Of a stretch of DNA of 64,000 nucleotides, positions 9,852 to 39,278 are shown piece by piece. Each line of letters begins with the position of its first letter. Position 1 is the stretch's first letter. Origin of the DNA: Phoronis australis (taxonomy: Eukaryota; Animalia; Phoronida); contig NMRA01000042.1 in NCBI GenBank assembly GCA_002633005.1, positions 432,838 through 496,837 of the forward strand, in the 5' to 3' direction. The notes beneath the pieces were generated by a model that had not been told where the DNA came from, did no database searches, and saw nothing but the letters and a program-made list of their open reading frames with translations. A program made the translations under genes and the position numbers.

Positions 9852-10660
9852 TTAGTGCCCGTGATATTTTTTTGTCTTGTAATGTCTGCTGTAGGTTTTG
9901 CCGTATTTTGCTGCAATTTCTTCAACCTTATTGTCTTTGTTACCACCTTGATAGTCTTCACTGTCATCACTGTCACCATTCATGGCTATGATGTCGTTGT
10001 TTGTGGACTCATGGTCACCACCACTGGTATCGCTAGCGGCATCATTGTTGTCAGTGTTGTCATCCTTAGCGTTCTTTAAGTCATTCTCAGCGTCCTTGGT
10101 GTCATTGTCATCATCGTCAATGTCGTCCTCACCGTCGTTGGTTTCATGGTCATCGTTAATTTCAGCCCCGTCTGCGTCACTGATTCCGTCTTTAACATTG
10201 TTTTCGTCGTCATTCTCTTGCCGTACATCGTCATTGACGTCACTTACATACCCCCATTCGTCACTGTTATCGCCGCCGTCGGTCTCACCGGCACTGACTC
10301 GGTCTTTGGCGTTATCTTCATTACTTTGACGTACATCCTCATTGTCTTCACGTTCATCATCATTGACGTTACTGTCGTCCTCATTTGTCTCACCGTAGCT
10401 CCCTTTGGTCTCATCGGCTCTGACTCGCACATCGCCATTGACGTCAGTGTCCCTCTCTTTGTCGCCAACGTTACTATGCTTGGCATCACTGCCACCGTCC
10501 TTGCCGTCGTCGGTTTCGTCGTTGTCTTCATTTTCATCCTGATGACTTCGTCCATCATTGTCATCATCGTTGTCACCATAACGGTCATCATCGAAATCAT
10601 CTCCCATGCCACCATTCAATTTTCCTAAAACGGCTTTCCACGGATCCTTTTCTTCTGGTT
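9852..10660 (-). CDS. Acidic protein A terminal exon (D/E/N-rich domain plus basic K/Y/H tail)
   Basis: ttgttacag|AACCAGAAGAA acceptor at 10661 extends ORF 9852..10619 upstream in frame; 809 nt open; polyA signal about 160 nt after the stop. Confidence 0.82.
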
Positions 10661-13600
10661 CTGTAACAAAAGAAACGTCATTAAACTAGCCGTGTGGGAA
10701 TGTAACTTAAAGAAGTTGTACATGTAAATGAACGGACTATTTACGATGAAAATCACATCATGATGAGTGTACCACAAAGTGTCTGTGCTCGTTCTTCTAA
10801 GAACGCCGGAGCACCTGACGAAGGCCGGAGAATAGACCGACCGAAACGTCGTGACAATGTAAATAGACAAGAGGTTGGTGTAAATAGACCAAGAGATTTT
10901 AATAATAGTTGCTTACCCTTGTTTGCATGCTTTTGCGTAGTTTTTCATAAAAAGCACGAGAGTTGGCTGAAATTGACGCGGGTTGGCGTTTTTTTAGTGA
11001 GTCGGAGTACAAACCAGAATCAATGATGCTGTTTTAGCCTTATCGTAACTTTCTGATAAAGCACATGCTAGGGGTTTTGGACATCAGCAATTTCCAACAA
11101 CACTCTTGATGGAAAAAAAGACTTTTTCTGAGAGCCAGTCAATTCGTGGCTTTGCAGTCCTGTGAATGCTTGTTACGTTGACTCCAACTTTCAGATGCGA
11201 ATAAGTGCGAAATGAATTCAGTAATTTTTTCCCTCAGTTTTCAAAATGATACCATCTTATTTGGTTGCAGTGAGAATATGTGTCAAACCTCGCTTTTAAA
11301 AACTTAACAAAAGCCAGCGTTCGTACCTCAGGACTTACAATAAGCGTTAAAATGGTTTCAGTGAGCTTACCTATCATGGCATAACTTCACAGACAAATAA
11401 CATTCACGTTTGGGTTAAAGACTCGTGAAGGTTCAAACTTTTCGCTACTCACTTACCTTGGAAAATATACCTTGATTTGAAAGGATCGGCTGTCTTGGCC
11501 TTTTCAACTTTTTTGCCCTTTTCACCATTGTTGACTGCCGCTGCATTAACAATGGAGCTTATCTTAATGAATTACCGACTCCAAACATGTCTATATCACT
11601 TACAATTGCGAACATAAACCCGCCTCCCGTTCAGTAACGCTAGGACCTCGCTGAAAAGCAAGACTTCGCGAGATTACGTGAGATATTACCGTATATTTTA
11701 AATGAGAACACGTGACTTTGACTAGGTTTTAGCTAGGTCCTAGCGTAGGTCCTAGCGTCTACTGAACGCACGCCCGCATTCCGTCTAATCTCGCCATAAC
11801 GGCCTAGTCTGTCAGTTCTCTATAGCCATAACGGTCTACCAGTACTATGAAGCCATCACGGTCAGTCAGTTCTCTATAGCCATAACGGTCTGTCAGATCT
11901 CTATAGCCATAACGGTCTGTCAGTTCTCTAGAAGCCTGCGAATCGCCTCCAAGTGCCACTAAGGAACATTTTGAGAAAATGTCAAAACTGAAAGTGGTCT
12001 AAATCCAAAGTTAGCCAGTTTCTTATGGAAGGCGGGTTGCGGCCGTTTTAAGAGGCGAAATTGTCAAAGTTTTGAAATTTACTAGGATTTTTTCATAAAA
12101 GCTGCAAATAACCAAACATGGTACACTCACATTCCTAATGAGATTTTCTAGATTGATTTGAATCTTCATTAGTCAATTTATTGCCCGAAGACATGCAAAT
12201 ACAAAACTCGACTCACCAGGAAGATCGATAAGAACAGCGTGGTCACCTTCTTCTTTAATCTTCTGAACGACCCGGTTTATGGCCTGCTGAAGCACGGTCT
12301 CTTCTTCTGGAATAGTAACTTTGACAAACTAACCAACACAATGTAAAAGTAATACACGACGGAGGAACACTTAAAACAGGTCTCGTAAAATGCTTGCGCA
12401 GGCTGCTTTATCCAATATATTTTTGTGAATACTGTGTCCAGCTAGAGATCATGTCGTAAAATATGACGAGTCCAACAACGTTTGAATGTTTTATGCAGCT
12501 TTTAACGACTGTTCTGTCTTCTGTTCAGACGTCCCATATGCTTAAACAGCTCATCATCTAAAAGTGGTTTTAATAAAAAGTGCACCATTTCCCATGAATT
12601 CTTTGTAACTACATGTTGCAACACATTCGCGGATCCACGACCATGACAAGGAATTCTTTGTAACTACATGTTGCAACACATTCGCGGATCCACAACCATG
12701 ACAAGGAAGGGGAATAGCAATAGATTGACAAAGGAAGCACTTTATATTCCTTCAATGGAACAATACAAAATAGCCTGAGCGGGGCTGTCAGACCCGCTGG
12801 ACCCCCCTCTGGATAGGCACCTACAACATCGTTAAGTGTGAGGAATGTCAGAAGCTGACCTCTCAGGAGTTTCATCTCCATACTCTGCAGTTTTTCAAGG
12901 ACAGAACTAAGCATGTGCGTATCCTTCACTTTCTCCGCTCCTAGAACAAAAAGATATTTACATTGGTCTTGTGCATATCACAAAATTCGCACTGAGACAG
13001 ACCTTTGAGAAGAGTTTGAAATGTAATTTGAAAAGGCATTCGACGAATTCCCATGCGTTATGGAATACCTCACAAAATGACCAGTGTCGCCACAATACTT
13101 GACCAGGACTTTCGGTGTATAATCATTGATGAGAATAATATTCTGTGAAATCGTTTTCCTATCAGATGCTGTCGCAACAGATAAACTGAACTAGTAAGTC
13201 GTTAGTCGAGTGAACTCAAGATTTGTTGTAACTGGTGACTTTGTTAAGTGGCTGGTGGATCCAGAATGCCGTAAGGAGAAGGAGCCCAACCATTATTTCC
13301 AAGGAAAATGCCTGCGTTGACCCTAAAAGGGGCATGTCGACGATGTTTTTGGACATATCCGCAGGTGGGTCTCATGAGTCCCCCTAAATCCGCCTATGCA
13401 TGTGGACCAATATATGCCTGTTGAAAGGCTCTTTTGATGGCATTCAGATCAACATAATAGACTTTGTCAACGTCTCCACAAAGACTGGGCTTCATGTAAG
13501 AAGCATTGAAGGATCTTCGCACAAATAGATTTGTACGCCGTGGATTTGATAAAGGAGTAGGCAACAATTTGTAATGCCATTTTTAGCTAAATTGCCACCG

Positions 13601-16600
13601 ATCAGTTTTCAACCCCGGGGGTTCTAATTAATTATGTATGCGTCACTGAGGAAGGAACGTTCGCGGTCCGCTCAGTAGCATTGGTTGTACGACTACCTAT
13701 TGTGGAGATATCTCAGTTGAATATCATGGGCGGCGCACCATAAGTGCTGCGCCGCCCTTAAATATAGGCCTATATTACTTAAAATACCTTCGACGAGTAT
13801 TCTCGGACGACCCTAGAACTCGGTGAAATGAGATTTGACCATTTCTTGACGGGAAATGGCTGGGGTCGATGACCATAAAAACACGGATCACTTCCACGGT
13901 GAAGCAGTACTGGTTGCTGACCATGTGCGCTGCGATGACAGTTCAGACTTGCAAGTGATACCAACTTCATCACCTCGAAGTCTTTGTACAGTAGCTCCTG
14001 CTCGTCAAACTTCACATTTCTCCCAGCAGGTAGCCGCGGAGAAGAGAAGGGAAATGTCGTGTATGACATCCACTTCAGAACAAGACTACTGAGCAGACCC
14101 CTTCATGATTTCTGTGGATGTGTCCTTTCCGTAATCTTACCGTTTAAGAAATGTTTGAAGGTGGCATGGACGTGCAGCACTGCATTCTTGACACTAATGA
14201 GCCAATGAACCCTAACAAATCTTGTCATCCATTGAAAATTGGTGAAACGCCTTCCTATACTCTTCGCCAGATTCCTATATCCCGGAAATAACAACTCAGA
14301 TATAGGCAAATAAATGTCTAAATTATTAGAAGCTGACGTGCGCAATGACGCATCCGAGTGTCAAACAAAGTCCGTAGAGTAAACAACGACGGCGAGGAAT
14401 GATCGGACCGCGAACATCGCTTCCTGAGTGACGCACGCATAATTAATGAAAACTTAGAGAAATATTATTTAAGTACTAAATTATTTTATGTAAGCTATAC
14501 TGCTTCATCCTCATTATCATATTGTTTGGATTCTCGGGTCAGTGACCCTCTTTGTTCTACGATTATTGGTTTAATTGTACCACGTGATCTCTTTGTCTTG
14601 TCGCAACACTGGGCCATCGTCCATAATTCTCTCCAAATTTCAGTTTTCAGTGAATTTCTCTTTATGGACGCATACAAGGATTATTATTCCAATATATTGA
14701 GTATTCTCGATATTTTTACGCTCTGTAGACTAAGTACACTAATTTTTGTACTCACCATCCTCTTTCCCGCCATCGTTTATGCTGTTGTTACCAGCTAAAA
14801 TTGAGAATTGTAAAAGCTTGATTGATCAACAGGCTGCCCATAAGGACACCAGAGTGATACTTAAACGACCTAAACATATAAGGCTTCAAATGAAAGTAAA
14901 ATCAAATACACAGAAAGCATTCTCCAAAAATAAACCATTGTGATAAAAATCACCAGCATATAAAGTTCATTGTCATGTGGGTAGAAAGACGAGTGATCTC
15001 CTCAATCATACTACGGACGATCTCAAAGTTTTCAGATTTTTTTAAGAATTCAGAATTATCAGTAAATATTGGGAGCAATCTACGTGAGTCGAGGGTTCAT
15101 TTTATATTGACTAGTACATATTCCATCGTTTGTTTCACAGGTATTACAACTACCAAAGGTAACATTTCGATTTGCAAGTTGCATCCTACGAGGTTTCTAC
15201 CTATAGCCTCGTGTCTGTGATCATTTATTTACAGATCGGTTACGTGTCCGAATAAGGCCATCGAGATCTTTTAATAGATTTAAATCGCACATTAGTGAAT
15301 TTTATCTTTAATCATCCGTATGGAATAAAGGTGCGTTTTACATTTGATTTTACGGGGTATATTTATAACATTCCTGGATAAGACGTTGTAAATGCACATG
15401 TGATAATATTACCATGCCTATACATTTAAATGATGTATGTTATATTTTGCTGGGCCAATACAATTTAACGAAATTCTGCTTAAAATTTGTTCCAGTCTAT
15501 CCCTATCTAGGCGAAATTGAACAGTTGCCAGTAAAAACAAAAATGTTTATATACATATTAGGAATTATCTTCACGTACATTTACATAAATATTTACAAAC
15601 AAAAATTTCGGTTAGAATTTAAACGATCGTCAGTGCTGACACACAGAAACATGGGAGTACGGTACTGAGTGTGACGTTGATGTTGTAACATCCCACTCGA
15701 CATTATTCCGTGGAATAAAGTTTCGTGAGATATTACTTCATCTACGCCAATCGAGGTACGTTTTGTATTTATCCCATACGCATCAAATTCTTAGGTTTCT
15801 TTCATTTTTTCGCAAGATTTTTCAAATACTTCTCTCAGACTGTTCACGTGGCGGATCACATCTTATTTGTATGTACTTGCGCGTCAGGGTGCAAGCTTTC
15901 TCTAGTAAAAGAAACGGTTTTAAATGTAACGATTTATTACTTGAAAAATGTAACAAAGATGAAAACAACGGTAACTGTGCATTGAACTTGTAACATCTCC
16001 TGAAAATAGTTAAATAATAACAATATTTCAAATTCTAGTTACCGAGGAATCCGGCGGCGCCTGTGTTGCAGACGACATATTTAGCAATTGAAAACAGAAC
16101 TGTCATTTAATTAACAGTCCTGTTCCGGATGTCACGACTGAGACCTGATTGTATGTTGAGTGTTACCCACACTGTTGCAAATGCATCACTTTTAACTTTT
16201 CCGAAAGTTTGATGATTGAACCGGCTATCGACGTCGAGTCGACATTGACCTACCTTTTGAACTTTCCTTGTCAGAGATCGCTGTTCAAGTAGTGCGGGCG
16301 GTGAATACGGAAAATATTATTAAATGGCCGTATTTCCCTCTACTGATTCAACACGTATGGGTTAGGTTATACAACGTACGTTTTTGTACCAGTGGTACAA
16401 ATATCGAGATTCGTGATATGCAAAAGAAGTTGAACGAGGGCGAATTAAGCGTTGAATACGGAAAAGTAGTTCTTCCATATGATATCTCACAATACGACCC
16501 GTATTTCATGGCCATACTATCACGCGTATAGCATAAAAATATTAAACGTCTGTACAGTCAACACCTCAGAAGGAAGAGAAAAATTTGGGTGAAATGATCA

Positions 16601-19600
16601 GTGGTGAAAATTCAAATTGTTTTTACCGTTATCTGTTGGTTGTCCTTTAGTTTTCGAAGCGGTTTCGTCTCCTACAATACAACACCCATTATTAAGTTAC
16701 AGATGAACTTTGACTTAGGTCACTTTCGACAATAAACATGGACCAGTCATTTTTGTATTGACGTTAGAATCAGAGATAGTATGATGAGGATGCATAAAAC
16801 ATTTGTACTATTAGGCCAAAGTTTGATCAAATTTTGCTAGCAAGTCAGGTTTAATGAGGTCATTTTTGCCTATATCAGGATCGAAAAAGCACCTCAAAAT
16901 TGCCATGTGGACCTAAAATGACGATTGCACCCTCGTCCACTTAGCTCCAGGACTATAACGCAAAACACCGCCGCATATAGAAGCCGGGACACAAAGAACC
17001 CGAAATCCATAAAACGGGACACATGGAACCCGGGAGATAAAACCCCGGACCCAATGAACCAGGGACGCAATGCTACATAAAGAACACTAGTGCGGTTGTG
17101 TTCGTAAGTTGGACTTTAAGTTATCAGCAAGTGATTTATATACTTAGCAAATTTACAAATTATGAAAAATGTCGTTTTTATTAAAATATAATTTCATGAT
17201 GTGTCCTTGATTTTTGTTTGTTAATGCGTACCATTCTTTGTTCCTGGGTGAGAAGAAGTTTCCAATGTAGTATCATCTGCAAAACAAATCACACCTGTAA
17301 TTAAATGCACGATGCTTTTATCACTTGGTAAAGTATTTTTTGTTCACGTTTTAAACATATTTTAACTGACCTGTCGAAGGTGAAACGAAGTTTTCTACAC
17401 GTTTGAAATTATACACCGGCGTCAATATGTTGGTTTTCAAACCACAAATTGTGATAATTACCTAGGTAGGTCGTTTATGTCATTATCACCTTTTTAGTCT
17501 GAAAACTATGATGTTGACCGAGTGTGGAAGTCCTTAATTGTTTTATTAAATGATTAAAACCGTTAAGTTGTTAATAGAAGGAAGTTGGTATTTGATTTTC
17601 CATTGAATGCTGATTACTCGTTCTGTCGGTCGGCTACCAGTTTTCACCCAAAACGTAGAAAGATTTTGAAACACTTCCTTGACATGCACGGAATGGTCGA
17701 TTGTATGTTGGGAAAGACATCACCCTTTGGGGTGACACAGCGGTCGTTTTTAACGCAAATCAATAAAATATTCTACGCGAACGCAAGTTGGATGTGAGCA
17801 CGCTCATTGTGCACCCGCTAATGGTCGCGCAAATGACGTGTAAAGTGAATGTACATCTTAGGGTTTGAAAGCATTTGTACAAGAGCGTGATGTTGGGAAC
17901 TGCATTCCCTTGCTGGAGGTATGCAATCACCTGGTGGCATGTAATTAACGCTTATTTAAAAACTTCGAAATCCGGGCGACATAAAAAAGCTTAAAAGGCT
18001 TTGATTTCTTTGTCTTGGTAAAGCCGAGACTTGCGAAGTGAAAGAGACTGGGTTCGAATCATTGATTTAACCAACTTACCGTCGGCCTACTGCTGCCATA
18101 TCATATCGAGAATTCATTTTTAAAATGAATTCTCGATCTCGTTACCAATTAAAATTGGTAACGAGATCGAAGGACGAGTTGGCACATCCCAAGATGAAAT
18201 GAAGTGGAAAAAGGAAATCATAGTAATATTTATTCCTTTGTATGTGGGATAACCTATTTATCCCATATAGTTATACGAACTTATTTGCATCGCGGCGATA
18301 TCTTGCTGCCATGTGTTTTGACTTGTTGTTATGTGACGTCATTCATATGCCAAGAGTGCCCGCGCTGGTTCAGCGACAGGATTGTCTGTTATGTTGAATA
18401 ATTAGTAAGAATTTTCAGTTTTGTGAAATAAACAAGTTAAAAACGATGAATCATTCAATAATATTAAAAAGGACACCAAACCCGGTTTTTTCCTATTAAC
18501 AGATACCAAAAGTGACTTTACCATCCAGTTCTCTGAAACAAAATAATGCTATGTAACCCTCGAAAACCCTCAACAAATTGACAAAAAAAAATGAAAATTC
18601 TTTTGAAAGTTTGCTAAACGAGCAAACGTGACCTACGCTTTTAGCGAATTACATGGCAACTGTTGGAAAAGATAACCCACCAAGGACTACAATGTCCAAT
18701 CTGTGACATATGGAATAAGAGTTTTTGGTTGTTTCCTGCCTTTAAATTGGAAGATTGATTCTACTGATCTTCGAAAACGCTATCAACAAAAACAAAATAT
18801 TCTTAAAGTTACAAACGGGGGAACGCGACAGTATCTTGATAGGGATGCTGGCATGAATTAGGGTACCTACCCATTTCGAGAGTGAATAAAAAAGGACCCA
18901 TTTGCACACAGCGATTCTGTCTTAGAGTTGGGTTCCAAAAGCACGGCTTTTTGTAGGGATTAATTTCATGAATCCAACCCCTTCGGGAAGTCACACAACA
19001 CATCATGTATAATACCTCTTCGTGGAAATATCACCTCGGCAAGTCACACAACACATCCGAAAAGTACAATTCAGTATTTTAAATTTAAATTTCCAACTTT
19101 TTGTCATTATGGTAGCTAACTGCTTTATGAACATTACAATGAAACAGCTTTGATTTAGAAATGATCAGTGGTGAAAATTCAAATTGTTTTTACCGTTATC
19201 TGTTGGTTGTCCTTTAGTTTTCGTAACGGTATCGTCTCCTACAATACAACACCCATTATTAAGTTACAGATGAACTTTGACGTAGGTCACTTTCAATAAT
19301 AAACATGGACCAGTCATTTTTGTATTGATGTTAGAATCAGAGATAGCATTAGTGCTAGATACATGTTCCAGTTTAACAAAAATACTGCTTCGTATAACGT
19401 TCCCTTAAGTGTTCGTCTGACACATACGCCATTAATCCGTGTCAGGCTTCTTACTTGTAAGCCGAATTTATTATTTTGGACATGCCGTCATCTATGTGTC
19501 CTTATCTTCATCAGTTCACGTTATAATTCAATACATTACTTTATGCTATTTTATATTATATCACTCATTACATTATAAAACATCATAATTTTTTACATTT

Positions 19601-23223: not shown

Positions 23224-23296
23224 GAGGCATTGTGGCCTAGTGGGATAAGTGTCCACTTTACTCAAGATCGTGGGTTCGAGTCCCACTGGGGCACAC
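23224..23296 (+). mobile_element. tRNA-derived SINE head (Pol III A/B boxes)
   Basis: A box TGGCCTAGTGG (23233-23243), B box GGTTCGAGTCC (23273-23283); no complete cloverleaf. Confidence 0.6.
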
Positions 23297-23353
23297 TGCT
23301 AAGCGCTTGAGTCAGGTCTCTAGCTCCTCAGCTTGGTTTTATTTAATACATTA

Positions 23354-26391: not shown

Positions 26392-26889
26392 ATTGTTCTA
26401 AAACCACTTCGACCCCCACACAACACGACCCCCTCAAACCACGACCCCCCTCGACCCACTACTCTGAAGAAATTACGTAATCTTGTATTTCTCGCTTCCC
26501 AAAAAAGCTTGAAATTGCCATTCACTGAAGAGCAGACGGGAACGACATTTGTAACGTTGGTAGGTCTTTGATTTGATTTTGTCACGTTGTTTTTTGTGTT
26601 TGTGGCTTTCAAACTTACCGATTTGACTCTCTTAATTGCAAAAAAGGTAAATCTAGCCGAATTCACAACCAGACTCGTTGGTCCTGCAAGTCAGCGCTTG
26701 TTCTATGCTCAGATCGAGTCGAGCTGGTGTAGACTGGGTCAAGGGCGTTGCGGGCCGTGGGTCGAGGGGGTCGTGGATCGTGGGTAGAGGAGTTCGTGGG
26801 TCGAGGGGGTCGTGGGGTGTGAGGGTGCAGGGGGTAGTGGGGTGTGAGGGGGTCGTGGGGTGTGAGGTTGGAGGGGGTTTTAGAACAAT
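26392..26889. mobile_element. MITE with TIRs and C-rich/G-rich subterminal tandem repeats
   Basis: ATTGTTCTAAAACC...GGTTTTAGAACAAT; left arm CGACCCCC repeats, right arm GGGGGTCGTGG repeats. Confidence 0.75.
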
Positions 26890-27700
26890 TCAATTTTAAG
26901 TGACAAACTGCGTTTAGAATTTCATTCTCCAATTATTGCGCGTGTAGATACGGTATATTATGTGTTTGTTGAGCTACACTTGAAAATATTCATGTTCGAT
27001 ATCACATAAACTGGTCACATTTATTGATTCATCAGATACATGATTTATTGGAGCAAACTCATTTTTAATCAAGAACAACCTTGAGACATATCTTGTGATG
27101 AGATTGTCCATTGCCGTCAGCAAGCTTCCTTTGATGATTTGGATTATACAGTTAAATATTCCGAACACTCGGTTATCTACCGCGGTTAACATGGTTAATA
27201 CTTTTCAACATGGAGAGCAAACAAATGAAAGGTAGTTTTCTACATTTTTAGGTCATCACGGGGGTATGTGCAGGTTACATGGTATTCTCGTAATGCTTGG
27301 AAGGTCACTAACCGACTAATCACCAAAGATGAAACCTCTCGCTGTCACATTTGTTAAAGGTGCATATCGTTTGTGCACCCTTTTCTTCGGCCAGGATTCT
27401 TCACTAGTCACGTCGTAAACGGACGGGACCCTTGTTTGTTGCACAAGTAGCATTAAACTTATTGCGCGGTGCGATTTGTACTGAATTAAAGAAACGACGT
27501 TAAAAGTTGGTGTCTAGGTTATTCAGAAAATGTTTGGACTTACAACAAGAACACTATTTTATCCTTCAATCTTTAGAGTGACCACGACCCACAGAGCTAA
27601 TCTCCGTCTATGATGAGTTTTAATAAAACTGGCAGACGACCTGTATCTGCCACCGCGCGGATTAGTTCCCTAAATTACCTCATTACTATGCTTCTTTTAA

Positions 27701-29320
27701 GGGAGAATGCCACCCAAAAAACAACCTATTTTGTATCAATTTAGATCGAGTAGTTCCACTCGATAACTGCAAGTTCAGTTGTTTTACCTGAGACCTAACA
27801 GCAGACGGAGGTGTTGAAATTAACCAATGAAGTATTCGGTTCGAACACAGTCCGTTCAGCCGTTCCCAACGCGCTTACTGGTGTCAACTTTTCGCTTGAA
27901 TTCATCGTTTTACACCAATAAATCATCAGAATTCGATGTAACCCCCTTACAATACATTGAGTTCTTGAACAAACGTGTTTTATTTCACTGTTTCGGATTT
28001 ATAGGTATTTGAACTTACCGTAGTCTACTTTACCATGGTCGATCGCGGGAGTTAGGGTCTGTTTGGTGATAAATTCCAATCTTTCTTCCGTGAAATACAG
28101 ACGGGGGAACATAGCTGCGTGTTGTACTTTTAGACTTGCGATTTTGTCAGTTCTAAACACACAAAACGCTTGTTACTCCCCGCCGCAGTGGCTAGGAACC
28201 CGATCAGGCCCGTCGCGGCCGCCAGGACTGGACATCACGAACATAAACCTCCAGTCACGAAAAGACTATAATAGTGAGCCAAAGAAATAATGTGCACGTA
28301 ATTGTTTAGGTGAATTATCCACGAAGCTGAAAATCTACGTACTTGTCGGGGACCGCGAAGTCAAGTTCCTCTTCCACAGAACCGTCAGGGCAAAGGTTGT
28401 ACAGTAACAATGATTTGAATAATGTATTGTATATCTAAATAAAGATTCCCCTAACATGTGACCATAGCATAAGAAATCGAGTTTTTGTTTCACAACAGCT
28501 TTCTTTTAGCAAACACTGAATTAACATGCGCTCACACGGCCTCGGTGCTCGGTCAGTTACCTTTATTGCATCTAAAGCCGGTAACGCAATGGTTTATTCA
28601 TTGCTGGCTTCTCAAAACATTTGCGCTCAGGAATACTCCATTAAAAACTGTATCTAATGAAACAGACTTTGTTTCAGTTTTATATAAGCATTGGTTATGG
28701 TGAGAATAATTCATTTTGAAACAGAACGCAGAATAATAAACGTCTACATGGCACCTCGCCCTGCGCCAATCCCGACCTAGTCAAGAGCTCATCCGACGAA
28801 GACTTCACGGGTGTATCATTAGGTTTCACAGGCTATCAGTTCGAACCAGAATACACTGATCAAGAAATACTAGAGAGGCGCTGCCAACATGCACAAGCAA
28901 CGGAACGTATGGATAGTTCTTTGGTAAGGCAGAATTCGTCAGAGAGATCAATGTCGACAAAATGCCGGCCACAGACACGGAGATGTTTCACGGCCTCATA
29001 ATTGCTATTGTGATCGTACTTTTCACTCTTCTCTACCGCGAGCCACTTCCTAAGCATTTCGGGCTCTCGAGGAAGTCGAAAAAACGATATACCCGCTTTC
29101 TTTGCAGCTTCATTGTTCGGAAAAGCGGGAACCGATGCACCGAAATATAGCGGCATTCACTCTGCTGATGAACCACTGACGTCGCTGCGTCGTTTCTCAC
29201 CTTCCTCATAGGTTAACGCGACACCTCTCGACAAGGTGAGGTCGACCGTATAAGAGGCGATGTAGATGTAGCCCGATTAAGACGGTAAAAATGGCTAATT
29301 TAATCGGGTGGTATTCTCCT
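27701..29320. mobile_element. Internally deleted Kolobok DNA transposon
   Basis: TTAA|GGGAGAATGCCACCC...GGGTGGTATTCTCCT|TTAA (RR termini, TTAA TSD); THAP-domain remnant on minus and YQFEPEY-containing ORF remnant on plus. Confidence 0.85.
28860..29156 (-). pseudogene. Truncated THAP-domain transposase N-terminus
   Basis: GISFFRLP...RKWL...LRVCGRHF matches the THAP C-terminal consensus; the N-terminal CxxxxC cysteines are lost and the ORF is truncated. Confidence 0.78.
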
Positions 29321-30430
29321 TTAAGTTATTCATCAATGAATGCATCTCCTCGGTCGCCAATAAGAATCAATAAGAAATTAGAAGACATTGGATAAAGCGA
29401 ATCTCTAGCTGTTCCTTTGCGGAATTACATCGTCCAACCAGTCGACCACAGACTTCAGTAGCCAGCGTCCTTTGCTCCCCAGTAATGTAAACTTTCCTTG
29501 GCTCATTAGTTCAGACCTCCTCAACCACTTATGAAAGCCCGAGGATGCTACGCTTTCCGTCTTGATTTGTGGATTTGCAGTACCAAATCTCCTTTTTCAA
29601 CGTGCTGGTCCCCGTTGAAGAAAATCAAGGCAATCGAGAAATGGTCGGAGAACAAATGTGAACCAAGCTCCAGCAGCAGTTTATTGCACATGTATTATTA
29701 CACAAATTGTCATCGTGGACACCGTGATTTTTTATGTTTAGTTAAACGCCGTTTCTTGTTGAAGTGTCATTATCATTTCTATTTCATGTCAATAATTTCT
29801 GGTCAAAACCAAATATTTTTCCTTGTGGGATATCCCCAGTGTGATATACTGATTCATCTACATGTTTGTGGTACCTTGAATGTTTGAGCTAACTCAAGTT
29901 TGGAAGGTCAGTTTTTAGTTTCTAGCGCGCATTTTCCTTAGTACGAATTTTCATTCGGTGTTTGATGTGACACGATTGCTCATTTAAATCAAATTTGACA
30001 GGTACTTGGGATATATAATCCAGCATAACATTTTACGCAGCAACCAATTATTCCATTCGTAGTCGAACATTTGTCCAAAGGTGGATACTCTCAGCTAACA
30101 ACGAATGGCTTCACGAATATTTGTTCTTGGTTCAACTTATTCTTAGCCGATGTTCGTTCGTTTATTCGTAGCTGCTTTCACGAACGTGTGGCCGGGTCTT
30201 CAGGTTGTCTTAAATTTTGTTTATGCTTGTGAGTGCTTTTGCGAGAGTATGCGCTTGTAATTTTTCGTGTGCGCATGCGTTGAAACAGCATAATTATCTG
30301 AATAAAAAGCAAACATTTATTGCTAATTTTCGACAATTCCAAACTAATTTACTTCGATGAAGACCTTGAGTCAACGTCTTTTCAATCGACAGTTGAGACG
30401 AGTCGTCTTCGTTGTTTGTTACCTCTATTC

Positions 30431-30681
30431 TTAATCATCGCCATCATTATCGTCGTCATCTTTATCGCCGTCGTCTTCATCATTGTCATCAGCATCACCA
30501 TCATCATCGTCATCATCATTGTCATCATCATCATCATCGTCACCATCATCATCTTCATCATCATCATCATCATCATCATCATCTTCTTCTTCATCTTTTC
30601 CTTCTTCTTCTTCTCCTTCGTCATCGTCGCCGTTCTCATCAGAAGATTCAAAGCTTTCCAAAATTTCTTCCCATTGATTAC
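30431..30681 (-). CDS. Protein B terminal exon (poly-Asp)
   Basis: ttttatttttag|GTAATCAATGG; extends ORF 30431..30661. Confidence 0.82.
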
Positions 30682-33600
30682 CTAAAAATAAAAATAAAAT
30701 TATCTAATCTGTTTATGCATGAAAATGTGACTAAAATGTTAAACTGAGATTTATAAACGTTATTGGACACGTAATCACAACAAAATATGATGGCGGCTTT
30801 GAACACCGTACTTACACAATTGAACAATGCGAAGCACTGAAGGCCAGTTCAGTATATATGTACTTGATATCGACGATCGTTTCCATATTAGGAGGGTAAA
30901 AATAGATAAAAAAATACGTCAAGGTCATCTTTACTGTTGTAGTATAGAAATGCACTTACTGTAATTTTTGCCACCCAACTTTTCTAATGCCATTTCTTCG
31001 TCTAAAACGAGAATACTTATGTATAGTTGTTCTGATATAAATCAACACATTGGTATATCAGCATAGTTTTCTTCTGCACTGTTAGTAGAACATACTGTCG
31101 GGACAAAGTTCTCTTCAGATAAACTATAGGTCACACGATGTGACCAGCATATGACGTGTGAGAAGACTATATGATTCTTACTTAAAGAGATTAATCATAG
31201 TTCATCATTAAGCGTCGAGTTATTGGTGTTGGTGGTGGTTGTGGGGGTGGGGAGCCAAGTGGTCATGGTGGTGTTGCTTGTGATGGTGATGATTTCTGAT
31301 GGTTCTTGTGGTTGTGGTGGTTGTATACTAGGTGGTGGTCGATTCTGCTGGTGAAGATACTTTAACCGTGACTAGCGATTACGGCAACATTCACTGGAGT
31401 CTTAGGACAAATTAATAGTAGGTAACAAAATCTAAAAGTTCCCACAATGAACAAGTTGCAATTCAAACGATTCGTTTGACACTTGAAGCACCTCCAGCGA
31501 TAAGTCCCAGACCAATATAGATCAACATCAACTAGTAAAAGTATATATTTTAAGAAAGAAAAAAGATAAGGGATTATAAAAATATTTTTATTTGTGTGTC
31601 CTTATTATTACATCAACACTTTTTTTTAAGTCAAAATTTCTTTTTTAAGAAAGGTACGTTCATAACAAAATAACGCCTAAGACGATTTTAATGAAACCTT
31701 ATTTAAATGAAAACTTCATCAGTTACCTCAAAAACGCTGTTAGGAATTTTCGATTAGTCTCTGAGTTTGGTATTTTTTGTAAAGTAGCAGTCTTATTCGT
31801 CTTTTACATTACGCAAAAAAATAGGTCTTTATACCAAAAATCCTAACAGCATTTTTAGGTTGATGAATCAATAAGTTTAGTTTGGAAAGTTTCAGTGAAA
31901 TCCACCAAGCCGTTTTCGAGAAGTTGGCTAACCTCAAATTAAGTCGATTTGCTGAAGCCGATAAAAAGCGGATTTAGGTAGTGAGCGGTGAAAGTCTCAA
32001 GGACTTTGGTTAATTATTCGGTGAAAATGTGTTTTCTGTCAAAATAATCTATACATTCATGTTCGCTATTTCAACTTTCAGTCGCAATCTCAGCTGAATT
32101 TGCAGTGCGGGTCAACTAGGTCAGAAGGCGGAGCCTGCTATAAGTAGGCCAACATTTCATTGTATATACTCACGCGCTGGGGAGAATAATATCAGGAAAC
32201 CAAGTATGGAATGGACAATAGAAATCGAGTCGGTGGTTAAAGCGCGTCGTGAGAATGAGATTGAAACAGCGCAATTTCAAATTACTGATCAAAATAATGA
32301 ATGTCGGGGATGATTTAACTTTTTTAATAACTTGATGTGTTGGTGAACTCTATAAGGCACAGAGGCAGTTTAGCGACTCGGACTCTATGTATACGTTCTC
32401 AACCGTCGTCTGCACGACTCCCTTCAGATAAAATTACGTTTTATCTTCGTTTTCCGTGGCATCATTTTGTGCGAATGAGGTTTGAGATATCGTTAAATTG
32501 CTCATTAAATGAATTAAGTACTCCACGCGATTACGTTTGATTTCATCTATCTCGACTATAAACTTGAATAAATCAATCCAGCGGTGCAAAAAAAAATCAG
32601 CCATCTAAAAGCAATCAGTGAAATCAACTATGCGCACAGTAGACGTTTGCATTTAAGAATCTATTAATATTAATTACAAAATGTAGTTTTTAAAGAAATG
32701 TTATTTACCGCTGATTATTGAGGATTCCACTTCCTTCACCTCGTCCAATATGTCTTCTAGTCTCTGTTCGCTGGTTTCGTTCATCCATTCTCCTGCAAGC
32801 GATTCTACAAAAACAATGACGTCATCAAGTCACTTATTGCAGGGATAATTTCAGGATTGCGCCCCGCGTCACTGGCTCAAAAATAATTTCATTGCCCCAT
32901 TGTGATTGCGAAACTCGGGGCTAACGGACCTATTTAAATTCAAAGTGAAAAGGGATGAAAACTGATTTAGTCTATAGGACTTCTAAATTGCCCCACAGAC
33001 TTGAGGCCATGTGGGTCAATTCACCCAAACTCACGTTTTTCTAAAATTATCCTTGCTGTTCCTGTATTTAGTGATGTAGTCAATCAAAATATTTGCAGCA
33101 CTCAGTATGCAGGATCATGAGAGAGTCTGCTGTTTACTGAAAACGAAAATGCGACTGTTTATGTAGTCCCAAACCCTGGACACACCTAAGGGGACCTTTA
33201 CAAGTGTAACAATCTCGCTCCTCCTGTCAAAAACAGGTTTTGATTCAGGCCACTTATTGATCCAAAATCGACCACATGTTGCTCTTCATTCAGATTAAAA
33301 ATCATTTCTGGGCTTTTGAAAAACTTCCAGTTCGTTATTGTTTAGACCAGGCACGTTAGCTGCTTGTTACATTTTCAGGTCCAATTCAGCATGTGGGAGA
33401 ATTTCTCACTTACAGTGGTCACCGTTTTGATTTCCTAAGCCCCAAACAACTGTTATGATGCCTATTCAGCCCGCCCTTTGTATTGATGTACATCTGAGAA
33501 AATGAAGTGGAAGGTAATAGCTAGCATTACTTTCTTAGCAGTGGTGGTTGTTATTACACCCAAATTGGTTTTCTCTGGCATTTGCACAAAGTTAAAGCCT

Positions 33601-36600
33601 GCATTGTGGAGGGTAGTTTTAACTTGGTACTTTTTAAATATTACAAAAATACTAAAAAGTTGTCAAGGGACTTTCCAGCATATTGGTCCTCTGAATTACA
33701 ATTCAAACAAATCAGTGTAATTTGGCAACAGTCCCTCATGTAAATGTGTTGAACACGCAAAAATGTTCACGATTAATAATATTTAAAGCAGACGACTCCG
33801 TTTCCCCAGCATGTGTATATTTCAACATTGCTATTTGTGTGATTCTGAGTGGGTAACGACTCTTCGTCATATATTCTAGTAACCCTGTGTCATTTTATGT
33901 TTGCCTGAAGTTCAGACAAGAACAACTCGAAACATAACTGTCATTTTGATCATTAGTTTTCTAATCATATCTCATGGCCGCGCTGCCTTATTGTTTGAGC
34001 TGCGAACGGCCGTTGAAGACACCGAGAGCTAGAGCGAGTATCGTTAAAAATTATGAATCGGGTATATTTTTGTGTATTCATCAAATTCAAACAAAGTAAT
34101 CTGATGACATTGTTTTGGAAGATCAAATACGCCTGTTAACTAAGTTGCTTTCTGACACCATGTCAGTGGATATTGGCCAGTTTAACAATTTTTCTTCTGC
34201 CTAAAATGACCAGCTGCAAGAAACGTAAAAAAGTAAATTCAGGGGTGCGTTCCGTAGCGCAAGTTTCCTGCTAGTTTGATAGGATCACGCACTGTCACAC
34301 AAGATCATCTCAGTACATGACGAGTGTTTCGCGAGTAAGCTCGCGACTTTACTAGAGGCCAACACTGGCAAAGGGGCCATCGTGGAACTGGGTTGCGTTC
34401 CGTAGACGCAAGACACTCGAGAGTAATATTCTGTCACTTGCTTCGATTATAATCCGTGACATGTGACGATATCTCTGGGATACTTGCGTGATCTTACGTT
34501 TTCTCGAGTTTCTTGTGTATACGGAATCGAAGGTAGCCGAGATTGAGCACCGCGTGTGGAATGTTGAACTATTGGAGAAAGTTCACGCTTTCCGTTCCAT
34601 AATTAGCAAAGATTTTTCGCCACCGGCAAGTACCTCGCGGGTTTCTAGCGCTAAGGAGCTTGGACAGACCCTGTTTTCAGAAAGATTAAAATTTAACAAA
34701 ATGGTTGAATGTTTGCTTTCTTTTGACAGATGTGTGTCGGCAGCAACTCAGATAATTGCAGCATGGACTAGTCAGCATTCAGCGGGAGAGATTGCGACCC
34801 AAGAAAAAGCGGCATTTAATTAAAATAACAATTAGTTACCATCGCCCGTTATGTGTTCTTCTATGTTTCCATTTTTCACAGCAAACTCATCTGCAACACA
34901 AACAATCAATCATTATACATTATTGCAGTTATTGGCTGTAAATCTTTTAATTGAAGCACTCCGGTCCATAGTTTTATCTTGTGTACTTAGAAAGATTAAC
35001 TCGTCTTATTAAAATAACAAAGAAAAGAGTTTCACCCCAAAAACGTCCAAGATGGCGCTGCACGGGGATTTAACGAATAAAATAAAGTTATTCGAAACTT
35101 TGGAAATATAACACATTGTCAGTATCAATCCGTTGATTTAATGCTTGACGCCTTTAACCATTTCTCAGACTTGCCTTGAAATTCTTTCACTTCATCAGTC
35201 TTAGGATCTTTAGATCCCACGGAGTACGAGACGGAACCCTTACTTTCCTCTGTTGGCCTTGCATCTAAACACAAAAAGAGAAATTCCTTTATTTAAACAG
35301 TCAATGCTTAAACTTCATTAACAACTATAACAACACGACATGAATCTCAACAACTACTACTACACAACTTCCAGCAGCACAATATGAACAGCAACATAAC
35401 TTCCAAAAACACCACATGAACAGCAACTACACAACTTCCAACAACACGACATAAACAACAATGACTATTACTACACAACTTCCAACAACTACCACTACCA
35501 CCACTACTACTAATACTATATTTGTTGTTGTCGTTGTTTTTGTTGTTGTTGATGTTGTTGTTGCTGCTGCTGATGCTGTTGTTGTTATTATTATTGTTAG
35601 TACTATATTGCTGTTAGCAGAATACTAGAACACCAAAAGTCATTTTATAAATGATTCAAGAATTTCCTGCAACAGCACTCAATCATATGACAACCCCTGC
35701 AAACCCGCAGCTGCACATTTCTTAGGAAAAAATAAGCATGTATTAGCGCCTTGGAGAAATATCCTTGGTTTAAACACGAAAAAATATATGATGGTGAATC
35801 ATCAGTCTTGACATCTGCAGTTTTAACAAATGTACTGAACGTCACATGTAATCAGGTTGCAGGTGTCTTCTTAAAAATAGAATATTTCATCCACCACGTA
35901 ACTTTGCTGCAAATAATCAGGACACATGTATTCGCTGCACATTTCAAATAAGATAAAACCGGCTATGACCCGTCTTACAACACAAAAACCAAATTTTAAT
36001 TTAAACCACTCGCCGTTATGAAATTGGTCTCAAATTTTTCCTCATTCAAAGTGGAGGCAATTTCAGGGTTACGAAAGAACTAACACTTCGTTATTGCACG
36101 CGAACGCGGGCTACAGATGTCCTGAGCATGGTCTCAAGGATTATCAGACTGTCAGTTCTTCTCATCCCAGAGGAAAACGTTGAGATAAATATTAGCGGAA
36201 ATTGTTCACCAACATTTAGTTTATGGACGGAACACGGGTTTATGCTCGCTTTTACTACGACAGAATTGGTGTTCCTGCTTACCACAAGTTACAACTTGTT
36301 TCAAAGTGACAACATATTTCAAAGTTACAATTTATGTCAAAGTTACAATTTATTTCAGCAGAATCGAATAGCAAACTTGCAAAAAGGACACGCGCTTTGG
36401 AATCAGTTACAAAGTTAAGAAACGCAAAACTAAACTCTCACAAACAAATTTAATTCGGATTATTTATGTTAAAATGCAAGTTACCAAAGCCAGGGACTAT
36501 GTGACGACCGATCATAGAATTGCGGAATCATTTGCACTAAGATTCGCAATTTCTTTTTTGTGACCTCCTGCACGCCTCGAGTATGAGAACTGTTATTGAC

Positions 36601-39278
36601 TGTTTGTGTTCTTTATGTGTTCACTCAAATGTCTGGTTGTCGTATGTGCATCAAAGCATATTAACTGTTTGATTACTGTTTATTCAATATAGCAATATAA
36701 AGTGTAGACCAACATCATCAACACTCTTCGAACATATTGCAAAAGAAGACTCCTAGGCCTATTTATCGTGTTTCTGTTTAATATAGCAAAGCCTAAACCA
36801 ACGCATTCCCATTAATTGCTGTGTAATTGTTTCGCTGCAAGCGACGTTGCGTTGGTAATTTTCACGAAACATTTGTCGTAACATTGCCTGCTATTGTCTT
36901 TGTGCGAAGTGCTATTTCACCCAGTTATGACGCCGGTTTATAAACTCATGTAACACGCGTAGGACTACCTATACTGGAACGTTAGGGTCTAGACAATCTG
37001 AGCAGTCTGAGTGAAGTATTTTAAAAAATCTGCCGAAAAAATGAAAGAAAGTTGGGAATTCAAAGCGTATGGAATAAATACAAAACGTACCTCGGTTGGC
37101 GTACATGAAGGAATACCCCACTCGACATTGTTCCGTGTATCGACTACGACCTTCGGTCTCTGTCGATACGCGTAATATTGTCTGGAGAAAAGGTTCGTCA
37201 TTGGTCTCTAGAGAGATTGTAGTATATAAACTGGTCACTTACTTAGAGACGTGGTTGGTTGTTAGCAGACGTTTCTACCTGGTCCGCCAGGTCTTTGTCG
37301 ATGAATGAGGGATTTCCCGCCTTTCGCTCGTTAAGAATGCGTGGAGTACATGGGCGTACGTGGAGTCCTCTGTCTCGGTACCCCCGTGTACTCCAGCATT
37401 CTTAACGAGCGAAAGGCGGGAAATCCCTCATTCATCGACAAAGACCTGGCGGACCAGGTCGAATCGTCTGCTAACAACCAACCACGTCTCTAAGTAAGTG
37501 ACCAGTTTATATATTAAGCGTAATAATGTCTCGTGGGATATCACATCATGTATACCACTCTCGGTACGATTTGTGTATATATTTGTGTCGTCATTTTTTC
37601 AACACTGGTGTTTTGAGGGATATTCAGAGAAATGTCTCCTCGTGTTGTAAAAATTTTCCGTGAATATGAAGAGGTGAGGAAAAAGATCTGTGACAATGAC
37701 TATTGTCCGGCGTGTTTTTAATGAAATGTTTGAGGACTCGGGTCTGCTTCCAACTATACGAATGAACAAGCAACATAAATACACACGGACCTTTAAAAAG
37801 TCCTATATGTATTTATGAAGTATTACTATCAAATTTCAAGTTTGTAGCGAAGTACAGAATCATTAAACTGTGATTGCCTTGTGGTCTCTGTGATTACAGA
37901 AATTCAAACATTGAACTTAAAAATGTTACTCAAATTTTGTATATTCTGAATTGTTTTATCATTCTGAAGAAACATTACATGGGAATAAGTTTTGGTTAAC
38001 AATGCTCGCATATGACGTTCCAAAATAAAACGAAGGGGAAAAGGTGTTTTTGAATGGGTTTGTAAAGCTGCCTTCCTTCACAAAAACAACACATTTTGAT
38101 TTGCACTTCTCGGCGCAATGACATTTGTTTCACGTTGTTCTTTAGTCGACTTTGAAGTGATCTTAGGGCTTCAAAACAGTTGACAATTCGTTATTGGTTG
38201 AGACCAGGCTCTTTGACTTGATTTGTCACTGTTACTGTATGTCCCTATCATGCTAGAAACATAGGCCTACAACGTTACTGTATGTCCCGATCATGATAGT
38301 CTCGATGAATAACGAGCTTTCAGTTCTTTGCAATCCCAGGTATCACTTCCCATTTGGGTATGGAACAAAATGCATCAAACCGATCCATGTCAAACGTTAA
38401 TTCGCTTCATGAACGTGGATAACTCACATGAAATTAACAAAAATCTGGGCAATCTAACTAAATTATTTCAATCATCAACAGGCGAGACTATATCATAAGT
38501 TTAACTGCACCTGCTACATATTGACTCGTATTCCTATAGAACGTATTCCTACATGTACAACGAGTTGCATTATTACATTTTCACGTTATTTCGAGAGATC
38601 ATCCCACAATCTATAGCACATATTTAGTTGTTTCATAAAGTGAAAGATATAGCTTTTTTGGGGGATGGGCTTGTTGCTGTTATTATGTGCCAAAATAGGC
38701 CTACCCAGACTACAAAAATTATGGGTTTCTAGATGGGTGTCTAGTGCAAGTTTTATCTTGGTAGCTCTTGTTTCGAGGAATAAATTCGAGTAAGAACTTG
38801 AGTTCAGATACGAAATTATAACTTTAATGCTCGGGTCATCAAGGGAAAACTAAGATCAGCCATCCACGTGAACTATAACGTAACTGAACATGGAAAAGTA
38901 CTTTGTATTTTGTAAAATGTAAAAGAAATAAATTTGAGTTCGATTTCGACTACAAAGATTACAGCCTGGGTACTGACTCTGACACGGTTTAACAAGGGTA
39001 GGAGTATTCAAATTCGGACAATGTCAGTGGAACAGACGTCCTGTCTTTTTCGGAAAACCGTCCGCAGTCACTCGAGTCCATCGAATATTCATATTCATTG
39101 CTAGACCTGTAGTTCTTGCGTGTCTAAGTTTACTCTAAGTTTTACTGATATGAGAAAGAACAAAACAAACCGACTCACTTGACTGATCCTCAGCAGTCAC
39201 TGTTGGCATACCGGTTGAGCTTCCGATAATAAGAGTGATGGCGACAATTATGGAAAAATTCACAATAAAAACGTTCAT
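30431..39278 (-). CDS. Novel secreted poly-aspartate protein B (about 174 aa, 4 exons)
   Basis: Exons 39179-39278, 35175-35264, 32709-32792, 30431-30681, all introns phase 1: MNVFIVNFSIIVAITLIIGSSTG/MPTVTAEDQS-NARPTEESKGSVSYSVGSKDPKTDEVKEFQ-GEWMNETSEQRLEDILDEVKEVESSIIS-GNQWEEILESFESSDENGDDDEGEEEEGKDEEEDDDDDDDDDEDDDGDDDDDDDNDDDDDDGDADDNDEDDGDKDDDDNDGDD*. AATAAA (minus) at 30316-30321. Confidence 0.8.
32709..32792 (-). CDS. Protein B exon 3 (acidic amphipathic helix)
   Basis: cttgcag|GAGAATGG...ATCAGCG|gtaaat. Confidence 0.75.
32840..33055. mobile_element. Degenerate CAGGG-type MITE
   Basis: CAGGGATAATTT...AAATTATCCTTG; no clean TSD. Confidence 0.5.
35175..35264 (-). CDS. Protein B exon 2 (GC donor; alternative in-frame GT donor at 35243)
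   Basis: tttttgtgtttag|ATGCAAGGCCA...TTTCAAG|gcaagt. Confidence 0.68.
35320..35610. repeat. Low-complexity (AAC/ACT)n tract followed by (GTT/GCT)n tract
   Basis: Degenerate trinucleotide runs that switch strand polarity near 35520. Confidence 0.75.
37223..37513. mobile_element. Foldback (palindromic) MITE with about 130-bp near-perfect arms
   Basis: TATATAAACTGGTCACTTACTTAGAGACGTGG...CCACGTCTCTAAGTAAGTGACCAGTTTATATA; short central spacer; TA-rich flanks. Confidence 0.88.
39179..39278 (-). CDS. Protein B exon 1 (signal peptide)
   Basis: ACCAACATG start, hydrophobic core, STG/MP cleavage-type site, donor TCAA|gtgagt. Confidence 0.8.

What the first reader, a model, noticed from the sequence alone, without database searches (positions are those of the whole stretch)
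9852..39278. Tandem pair of unrecognised, extremely Asp-rich secreted-protein genes: candidate lineage-specific biomineralisation or Ca-binding matrix locus
Seen: two adjacent minus-strand genes between ARL2 and ACBD3 share an ordered plan. Each has an ARPT-containing exon, an 81/84-nt phase 1-1 exon with the same hydrophobic register (A: MLSSVLEKLQSMEMKLLR; B: RLEDILDEVKEVESSIIS), and a terminal exon opening W-x-x-[IV]-L (A: PWKAVLGKL; B: QWEEILESF) followed by a long Asp-rich tract and a nearby AATAAA. B has a clear signal peptide. Established: secreted Asp-rich disordered proteins (mollusc Aspein/Asprich, coral CARPs/SAARPs, vertebrate acidic SCPPs) bind Ca and control CaCO3 or Ca-phosphate mineralisation, and often sit in tandem clusters. 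Inference: this is a locally duplicated family I do not recognise as any named one, possibly a skeletal/ossicle matrix, Ca-storage or mucus component. I cannot exclude that it is annotated as an uncharacterised protein.
Basis: partly seen in the sequence, partly recalled or inferred. Interest (0 to 1): 0.85.

Follow-up and report, generated by a model that had tools for sequence, protein, structure and literature searches.

The report
Two unnamed secreted aspartate-rich invertebrate proteins
Two neighbouring genes, one confirmed by spliced RNA reads and one only predicted, encode very acidic proteins with no detected relatives; they are predicted to be secreted and likely bind calcium outside the cell, but a role in building a skeleton is untested and the animal may not make one.

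Summary
Two Asp-rich minus-strand genes do lie between ARL2 and ACBD3. Gene B is confirmed: 5 of 5 junctions are read, strand-specifically, in three RNA runs. It encodes 209 aa; the mature part is 46% Asp+Glu, pI 3.2, and expression differs 13-20-fold between runs. Two claimed shared features fail: A's 'ARPT' lies upstream of its start codon and is chance, and B's helical exon is 96 nt, not 84. A/B similarity is marginal (p 0.02-0.04; reversed B scores as high), so paralogy is plausible but unproven. No homologue was found. ACBD3 places the host in Lophotrochozoa, best among lophophorates; placements inside sampled molluscs and deuterostomes are rejected. Both proteins likely act as extracellular Ca2+-binding polyanions, like Asprich/Aspein, but lack those families' motifs. 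A skeletal role depends on the host: phoronids are unmineralised, and published brachiopod shell proteomes lack proteins this acidic. Verdict: new members of a known kind, moderate interest.

The parts
39179..39278 (-). Gene B exon 1 (coding part): ATG at 39278, signal-peptide-like hydrophobic core, phase-1 GT donor; 5' UTR reads reach at least 39286
   Evidence: Joint 39179>35264 in 5/6/91 reads (X1/X2/X3) and an X4 contig; hydrophobic scan
37091..37207 (-). Gene B minor 117-nt cassette exon, overlapping repeat-derived DNA; probably an exonised repeat
   Evidence: 3 reads in X3 against 91 for the skipping joint; repeat arms 37020-37134 and 37220-37516
35175..35264 (-). Gene B exon 2, 90 nt, begins with ARPT, ends at a GC-AG donor
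   Evidence: Joint 35175>34890 with CT..GC ends in 3/2/57 reads
34840..34890 (-). Gene B exon 3, 51 nt
   Evidence: Joints on both sides read
32709..32804 (-). Gene B exon 4, 96 nt, predicted acidic amphipathic helix
   Evidence: Joints read; hydrophobic moment 0.67
30960..31001 (-). Gene B exon 5, 42 nt
   Evidence: Joints read
30431..30681 (-). Gene B last coding exon: W-x-x-I-L motif, then a 71-aa tract of 62% Asp and 77.5% Asp+Glu, stop at 30433-30431
   Evidence: Joint 30960>30681 in 7/8/53 reads; composition
30316..30321 (-). AATAAA downstream of gene B
   Evidence: an X4 contig piece covers 30315-30464
19619..19685 (-).
   Evidence: Sequence and scan. No reads: depth 0 in its bin in 4 of 4 runs at 97% likeness
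17232..17276 (-). Gene A predicted exon 2, 45 nt, phase 1-1 (weakest prediction)
   Evidence: Read from sequence; below the splice-site filter; unconfirmed
14756..14794 (-). Gene A predicted exon 3, 39 nt, phase 1-1
   Evidence: Passed the splice-site filter; zero depth in its bin
12860..12940 (-). Gene A predicted exon 4, 81 nt, predicted helix
   Evidence: Passed the filter; low depth in its bin, which also holds repeat-like DNA
12217..12306 (-). Gene A predicted exon 5, 90 nt, strongly amphipathic helix
   Evidence: Open frame and GTGAGT donor; moment 0.79; + mate depth 0.18/0.94/0 in its bin
11457..11540 (-). Gene A predicted exon 6, 84 nt, Lys-rich
   Evidence: Open frame and GTAAGT donor; bin swamped by a repeat at 11622-11774
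9852..10660 (-). Gene A last coding exon: W-x-x-V-L motif, 220-aa tract of 29% Asp and 13% Asn, 33-aa basic Tyr/His-containing tail, stop at 9854-9852
   Evidence: 268 open codons with codon-position entropy 1.52/1.58/1.88 against 1.99/1.97/1.95 in an intron; depth about 1.5-2 in X1 and 0-1.4 in X2 on the expected strand, 0 in X3 and X4
9684..9689 (-). AATAAA downstream of gene A
22345..22356 (-).

Best explanation
Gene B is a spliced, expressed gene and gene A a predicted one; each encodes a very acidic, cysteine-free protein that is predicted to be secreted and disordered and that likely works as a calcium-binding polyanion in a gland or epithelial secretion of a lophotrochozoan animal, likely a lophophorate. 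Shown: B's exon structure, strand, run-to-run variation and composition (net charge -74 over 186 residues). Inferred: the signal peptide routes the protein to secretory granules; the short amphipathic helices and the W-x-x-[IV]-L segment let it self-associate or dock on a scaffold; the Asp tract binds many Ca2+ ions weakly, condensing the secretion and stabilising or inhibiting CaCO3 at the surface where it is released (tube, mucus or matrix). A's basic Tyr/His tail would tether it to anionic partners. This is how Asprich, Aspein and Starmaker are described to work, but it does not require a mineral skeleton. A and B are probably old, fast-evolving duplicates (about 60%, my estimate).
For: B: 5 of 5 joints read on the expected strand in 3 of 3 raw runs and in an X4 contig; joint reads per million records 1.5, 2.2 and 29, so expression is sample-dependent. 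Composition: B mature 28% Asp, 46% Asp+Glu, pI 3.24; A mature 19% Asp, 29% Asp+Glu, pI 3.98; no Cys in either mature chain. Of 4 hydrophobic ATG candidates in the scanned stretches, only the two gene starts have phase-1 donors. N-glycosylation sequons and three or four S-x-E sites per protein, no KDEL end, no transmembrane segment seen. 11 of 11 introns phase 1. Host: the three best of 55 ACBD3 placements are all lophophorate (summed weight 0.67 and 0.76). Asp-rich domains bind Ca2+ regardless of exact sequence (PMC9496343, passages).
Against: No binding, localisation or tissue data: the run descriptions give no tissue. Secretion rests on a hydrophobicity scan, not SignalP. A is barely expressed in these runs and its first and third exons have zero depth. 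Paralogy is marginal. The host placement comes from one gene on a fixed, recalled backbone; annelid, nemertean-stem and mollusc-stem placements are not rejected (13-15 of 55 placements survive). If the host calcifies, the narrower skeletal reading (first rival) becomes the best one.
Confidence: 0.5

Rival explanations
1. The proteins are true skeletal matrix proteins, occluded in a calcitic shell or calcareous tube, where they control crystal nucleation and polymorph as Aspein and Asprich do. This needs a calcifying host: a rhynchonelliform or craniiform brachiopod, a serpulid-type annelid or a calcified bryozoan.
For: B's pI (3.24) matches Asprich's (3.1; PMC4519255 passages). Placement beside Lingula had UFBoot 78 in a free tree and, like placement in sedentarian annelids, is not rejected. 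Lineage-specific low-complexity proteins dominate lophotrochozoan shell proteomes (PMC13425148 passages).
Against: Placement beside Lingula carries only 0.17-0.20 of the weight; base of Lophophorata plus bryozoan stem, where a phoronid could attach, carries 0.47-0.58. No extant phoronid is skeletal (PMC9484238 passages). Brachiopod shell proteomes lack unusually low-pI proteins (Laqueus; Lingula; Magellania top proteins 12-15% Asp, pI 4.3-4.4). Aspein and Asprich motifs are absent.
Confidence: 0.33
2. They are granin-like or calsequestrin-like proteins: acidic cargo that buffers Ca2+ and condenses the contents of dense-core granules in neuroendocrine or muscle cells, with no role in an external matrix.
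For: Signal-like N-terminus, acidic disordered chain with short amphipathic helices; resemblance recalled, not tested against sequences.
Against: B has no dibasic cleavage site and A only two Lys-Lys pairs; no Pfam match for any of 9 tested exon pieces; no ER-retention end; poly-Asp rather than Glu-rich chains.
Confidence: 0.1
3. There is no family: B is a real orphan gene, while A is unrelated to it, or is a decaying or rarely used gene, and the shared plan reflects convergent composition (signal exon, phase-1 introns, GAY-rich codons).
For: Reversed B aligns to A as well as forward B under BLOSUM62 (49 against 48); no DNA similarity; ARPT and the exon-size match fail; no A junction seen; A's first exon has no reads.
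Against: A's seven predicted exons join in one open 404-codon frame with canonical sites; its last exon has a coding signature (no stop in 268 codons, seen in 1.9% of position-preserving shuffles); the best A/B alignment puts one exon junction in exact register and scores p 0.02-0.04 under three matrices; two unrelated Asp-rich secreted genes side by side would be a coincidence. This rival concerns origin and is compatible with the mechanism above for B.
Confidence: 0.35

Closest known systems
Asprich (bivalve Atrina rigida prismatic shell matrix)
   Same: Very acidic chain with poly-Asp runs; pI 3.1 against 3.24 for B (PMC4519255 passages).
   Different: No DEAD repeats in A or B; B is 46% acidic against 60%; B has about 115 residues of mixed, partly helical sequence before the tract; host outside sampled molluscs; no sequence match found.
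Aspein (pearl oyster Pinctada)
   Same: Signal peptide followed by a C-terminal Asp-rich domain (PMC9496343 passages).
   Different: No poly-Asp punctuated by Ser-Gly, no DA domain, N-terminal region charged rather than uncharged; far less Asp (28% and 19% against 57.6%).
Acidic brachiopod shell proteins (Magellania R20074237 and R10061090; Laqueus isotig 01176)
   Same: Novel, signal-bearing or Asp-rich proteins from a lophophorate (passages).
   Different: They have 12-15% Asp and pI 4.3-4.4, or extra domains; B is much more acidic. Their sequences could not be read, so homology is untested.
Starmaker / OMM-64 and vertebrate acidic SCPPs
   Same: Secreted, disordered, acidic, phosphorylatable proteins from small-exon genes (Starmaker: passages; SCPP gene structure recalled).
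   Different: Vertebrate families; no SCPP orthologue in Lingula; SCPP introns are phase 0 (recalled) whereas 11 of 11 here are phase 1; only 3-4 S-x-E sites.

Membership tests
Aspein | N-terminal signal peptide | tested here: met
   Hydrophobic core in both first exons; judged by scan, SignalP not available
Aspein | Poly-Asp blocks punctuated by Ser-Gly dipeptides | tested here: not met
   Ser-Gly occurs once in A and never in B; no DSG or SGD; definition from PMC4519255 passages
Aspein | Uncharged N-terminal region and DA domain before the D domain | tested here: not met
   DA occurs 4 times in A and once in B, scattered; N-terminal regions are charged; definition from PMC9496343 passages
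Asprich | DEAD repeats | tested here: not met
   0 in A, 0 in B
Asprich | About 60% acidic residues, pI near 3.1 | tested here: inconclusive
   B 46% acidic, pI 3.24; A 29%, pI 3.98
Aspein / Asprich | Bivalve host | tested here: not met
   ACBD3 placements within the sampled bivalves, gastropods and chiton are rejected by the AU test; single gene
Acidic biomineral matrix proteins (functional class) | Occluded in mineral or expressed in the mineralising epithelium | not testable with these tools
   Runs carry no tissue label; no proteome of this host
Acidic biomineral matrix proteins (functional class) | Ca2+ binding and effect on CaCO3 crystallisation | not testable with these tools
   Inferred from composition only
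Vertebrate acidic SCPPs | Phase-0 introns (recalled) and vertebrate host | tested here: not met
   11 of 11 introns phase 1; deuterostome placements rejected
Coral CARP4/SAARP | Conserved non-acidic domains between acidic blocks (recalled) | tested here: inconclusive
   No hit, but only single exons could be searched; host is a bilaterian; no direct comparison with SAARP sequences
Granins | Multiple dibasic processing sites (recalled) | tested here: not met
   None in B, two Lys-Lys in A
A and B as one tandem family | Significant similarity outside the low-complexity tracts | tested here: inconclusive
   p 0.02-0.04 under three matrices; reversed control equal under BLOSUM62; none at DNA level

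The most novel reading that the evidence does not exclude
A and B are an Asprich-grade acidic protein family of lophophorates: either the extremely acidic shell protein that brachiopod proteomes have so far missed, or a relic of the ancestral lophophorate mineralising toolkit kept in an unmineralised phoronid and redeployed in tube secretion or in dissolving carbonate substrate.
Probability: 0.15. Interest if true: 0.7.

Novelty: new member of a known kind. Interest (0 to 1): 0.4.

Why it matters
Secreted Asp-rich proteins are a known, repeatedly evolved tool for handling calcium, so two more are not surprising in themselves. The host makes them worth a look. Passages from three brachiopod shell studies report no unusually acidic matrix protein, and phoronids are thought to have lost mineralisation. 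A confirmed pI-3.2 secreted protein in a lophophorate gives a concrete probe for whether the acidic-protein route to carbonate control exists in that group, or persists without a skeleton. If the host proves to be a calcifying annelid, it is a routine candidate tube-matrix protein.

Tried and rejected
No whole genome is held for this window, so other copies and synteny could not be searched. Run search with A's last exon listed no RNA holder; three raw runs and one contig set came by species label. Laying reads at 90% likeness over gene A was swamped by repeats: 15 of 108 joints shown, none of gene A. No joint from B to the 19660-19619 region is among the 13 listed, so a single gene with two ends was dropped. 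Homologue searches, single exons only: A last exon, 0 of 6235 candidates at E <= 0.001; B exon 4 with flanks, 0 of 18 candidates at E <= 10; full HMMER scan with B exon 4, one hit, P0121, E 8e-4, an unnamed 906-aa metagenome repeat protein, rejected as a chance helix match. These are weak negatives for 30-40-residue queries. Pfam: 0 of 9 A/B exon pieces. Rfam: none. The protein atlas did not answer in 8 tries. Single-sequence AlphaFold of A's last exon gave mean pLDDT 49.9, pTM 0.13: compatible with disorder but uninformative without an alignment; no fold search was run. Internal repeats in A's tract were not significant (p 0.05-0.16). First ACBD3 tree left the window unresolved. The placement used only 126 columns because of my indexing error and is superseded. 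Earlier-findings look-ups returned nothing. Motif search of the PMC13425148 supplement found none of five motifs, but the rows seen list accessions, not sequences; supplements of the Magellania and Laqueus papers could not be read and may hold homologues. Literature searches gave nothing usable on phoronid or serpulid tube proteins; bioRxiv 10.64898/2026.03.09.710468 (passages) has no mention of acidic proteins.
Full report
Setting. The window is intron-rich animal DNA. ARL2 lies on the + strand and ends near 5760. ACBD3 lies on the minus strand from about 63213 to 44792. Between them, two minus-strand open frames are strongly Asp-rich: 10685-9855 and 30703-30434. No whole genome is held for the window.

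Gene B is real. The run search returned three raw RNA runs (X1-X3) and one contig set (X4) by species label. Laid on 19450-39449 at 97% likeness, they give five joints that define six exons: 39278-39179, 35264-35175, 34890-34840, 32804-32709, 31001-30960, 30681-30431. All five are read in all three raw runs with the first mate on the + strand, as expected for a minus-strand transcript in most stranded libraries, and all five stand in one X4 contig. Exon 2 ends at a GC donor. Joint reads total 19, 25 and 321, or 1.5, 2.2 and 29 per million records, so B is 13-20 times higher in X3; the tissues are not given. A 117-nt cassette in repeat DNA appears in 3 reads. Of five coding variants in the reads, three are synonymous and two are not (the third synonymous one is my reading of an alternative joint row), too few to show selection. 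The protein has 209 residues. After a signal-like first 23, it is 28% Asp and 46% Asp+Glu, pI 3.24, net charge -74, with no Cys; the last 71 residues are 62% Asp.

Gene A is probable but unconfirmed. A scan for hydrophobic starts with a nearby donor gave four candidates; only 39278 (B) and 19685 have phase-1 donors. From 19685, seven exons (19685-19619, 17276-17232, 14794-14756, 12940-12860, 12306-12217, 11540-11457, 10660-9852) join in one open frame of 404 codons with GT-AG introns. The mature chain is 19% Asp, 29% Asp+Glu, pI 3.98, with a 220-residue acidic tract and a 33-residue basic tail. The last exon looks coding: codon positions 1 and 2 are constrained and position 3 is freer (entropy 1.52/1.58/1.88 against 1.99/1.97/1.95 in an intron), and Asp codons are split 25 GAT to 41 GAC, unlike a microsatellite. 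My splice filter was fairly precise in B (4 of its 6 rows there were confirmed, covering 4 of 4 sites, though it missed exon 4); A's exons 3 and 4 passed it, while 2, 5 and 6 did not. Against A: read depth on the last exon is about 1.5-2 in X1, 0-1.4 in X2 and 0 in X3 and X4; the bins of exons 1 and 3 are empty in X1-X3; no A joint is among the 15 of 108 shown. A and B are therefore not co-expressed in these samples.

The shared plan, tested. Real: adjacency, strand, signal-like first exon, 11 of 11 phase-1 introns, helical segments, a W-x-x-[IV]-L motif before the tract, and AATAAA at 9689 and 30321. Not real: A's ARPT at 22356 is upstream of its start, lacks a pyrimidine tract, has no reads, and is one of 8 of 110 B four-mers found by chance in that stretch. 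B's helical exon is 96 nt, not 84. Outside the tracts, A (133 aa) and B (115 aa) align locally at p = 0.02-0.04 under three matrices and two shuffle schemes, with one exon junction in exact register; global p is 0.09, reversed B scores 49 against 48 under BLOSUM62 (lower under the other two), no exon pair of 42 is significant after correction, and DNA shows nothing. Common origin is plausible, about 60% by my estimate, and not shown.

Relatives. Only single exons could be searched. A's last exon found 0 of 6235 candidates. B's exon 4 found 0 of 18, and one chance hit in a full scan of 1.84 billion representatives. Pfam found nothing for 9 of 9 exon pieces. These are weak negatives for short queries, and the protein atlas did not complete. 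The host itself seems absent from the protein collection: none of the 120 listed ACBD3 hits (of 1097) reaches 90% identity over 90% of the query.

Host. The best named ACBD3 matches are lophotrochozoan apart from one nematode entry, and the window's ACBD3 carries a second exon type otherwise seen in mollusc and annelid sequences. A first tree left the window unresolved; a second, of 45 rows and 309 columns, put it beside Lingula at UFBoot 78. I then placed it on each of 55 branches of a fixed backbone of 29 named taxa (topology recalled; 15 unnamed rows left out), with and without the duplicated exon. All placements inside deuterostomes and inside the sampled molluscs, including beside the chiton, are rejected; 15 and 13 of 55 survive. 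The three best are base of Lophophorata, bryozoan stem and beside Lingula (summed weight 0.67 and 0.76; beside Lingula alone 0.20 and 0.17). Beside the annelid Lamellibrachia has 0.18 and 0.16. No phoronid, non-lingulid brachiopod or serpulid was available. So 'ossicle' is unlikely, and an unmineralised host is a live possibility.

Mechanism. Shown: an expressed, regulated gene for a polyanion (B). Predicted: secretion and disorder (single-sequence AlphaFold of A's last exon gave pLDDT 49.9, which adds little). Inferred: the Asp tract binds Ca2+ with high capacity; Asp-rich domains of Aspein do so and are not conserved in sequence between species (PMC9496343, passages). The helices (moments 0.67-0.79) would serve self-association or docking, and A's basic tail would bind anionic partners. 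I put the host-neutral version, a Ca2+-binding component of a gland or epithelial secretion, at 0.5; a true skeletal matrix role at 0.33; a granin- or calsequestrin-like role at 0.1.

Comparison with what is known. They likely work like Asprich and Aspein but are not members: no DEAD repeats, no Ser-Gly punctuation, no DA domain (definitions from passages of PMC4519255, and PMC9496343), and the host is not a bivalve. A barnacle protein was treated the same way in PMC4519255, which shows how often this type arises. They are not SCPPs (phase-1 introns; SCPP phase recalled). In lophophorates, passages report no unusually low-pI shell protein in Laqueus (PMC4536745), no secreted acidic shell protein in Lingula (PMC4595640), top Magellania proteins at 12-15% Asp (PMC4453069), and no skeletal extant phoronid (PMC9484238); PMC13425148 (abstract, passages, one supplement searched) does note Asp- and Glu-rich low-complexity motifs among Lingula-specific shell proteins. 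Ten literature searches showed no description of these genes, but they cover open-access text only, and the Magellania and Laqueus supplements could not be read.

Verdict. A real orphan acidic gene plus a probable second one; new members of a known kind of protein; pairing and skeletal role unproven. Interest 0.4, rising to about 0.7 if the host is a lophophorate and the protein is tied to mineral control or to its loss.

Noticed in passing
window 47547-47431 and 46825-46670 (minus): ACBD3 carries two similar exons in tandem just before the GOLD domain. Mollusc and annelid ACBD3 sequences use one type or the other, and two entries hold both. This looks like an old pair of mutually exclusive exons in lophotrochozoan ACBD3.
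   Followed up: partly
window 35175-35174 (minus): Gene B intron 2 is a GC-AG intron, used in 3/2/57 reads; the nearer GT donor at 35243 is not among the listed joints.
   Followed up: yes
window 29156-28863 (minus): Degenerate THAP domain (PF05485, E 4.5e-09) between genes A and B, probably a transposon remnant.
   Followed up: partly
window 13621-14453: About 830-bp element bounded by 54-nt inverted repeats (83% complementary) in gene A's third predicted intron; probable non-autonomous DNA transposon; its internal frame has no Pfam match.
   Followed up: partly
window 11622-11774: Short interspersed repeat in a gene A intron, read at depth near 1000 on both strands at 90% likeness, next to a 27-bp tandem array at 11807-11930; a high-copy element.
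   Followed up: no
window 16591-16782 and 19158-19349: 192-nt direct repeat, 96% identical, on either side of gene A's predicted exon 2; a recent local duplication or repeat pair.
   Followed up: no
window 50997-51315 and 3594-3919: Tandem arrays: 72-bp unit x 4.5 in an ACBD3 intron and 32-bp unit x 10 in an ARL2 intron.
   Followed up: no
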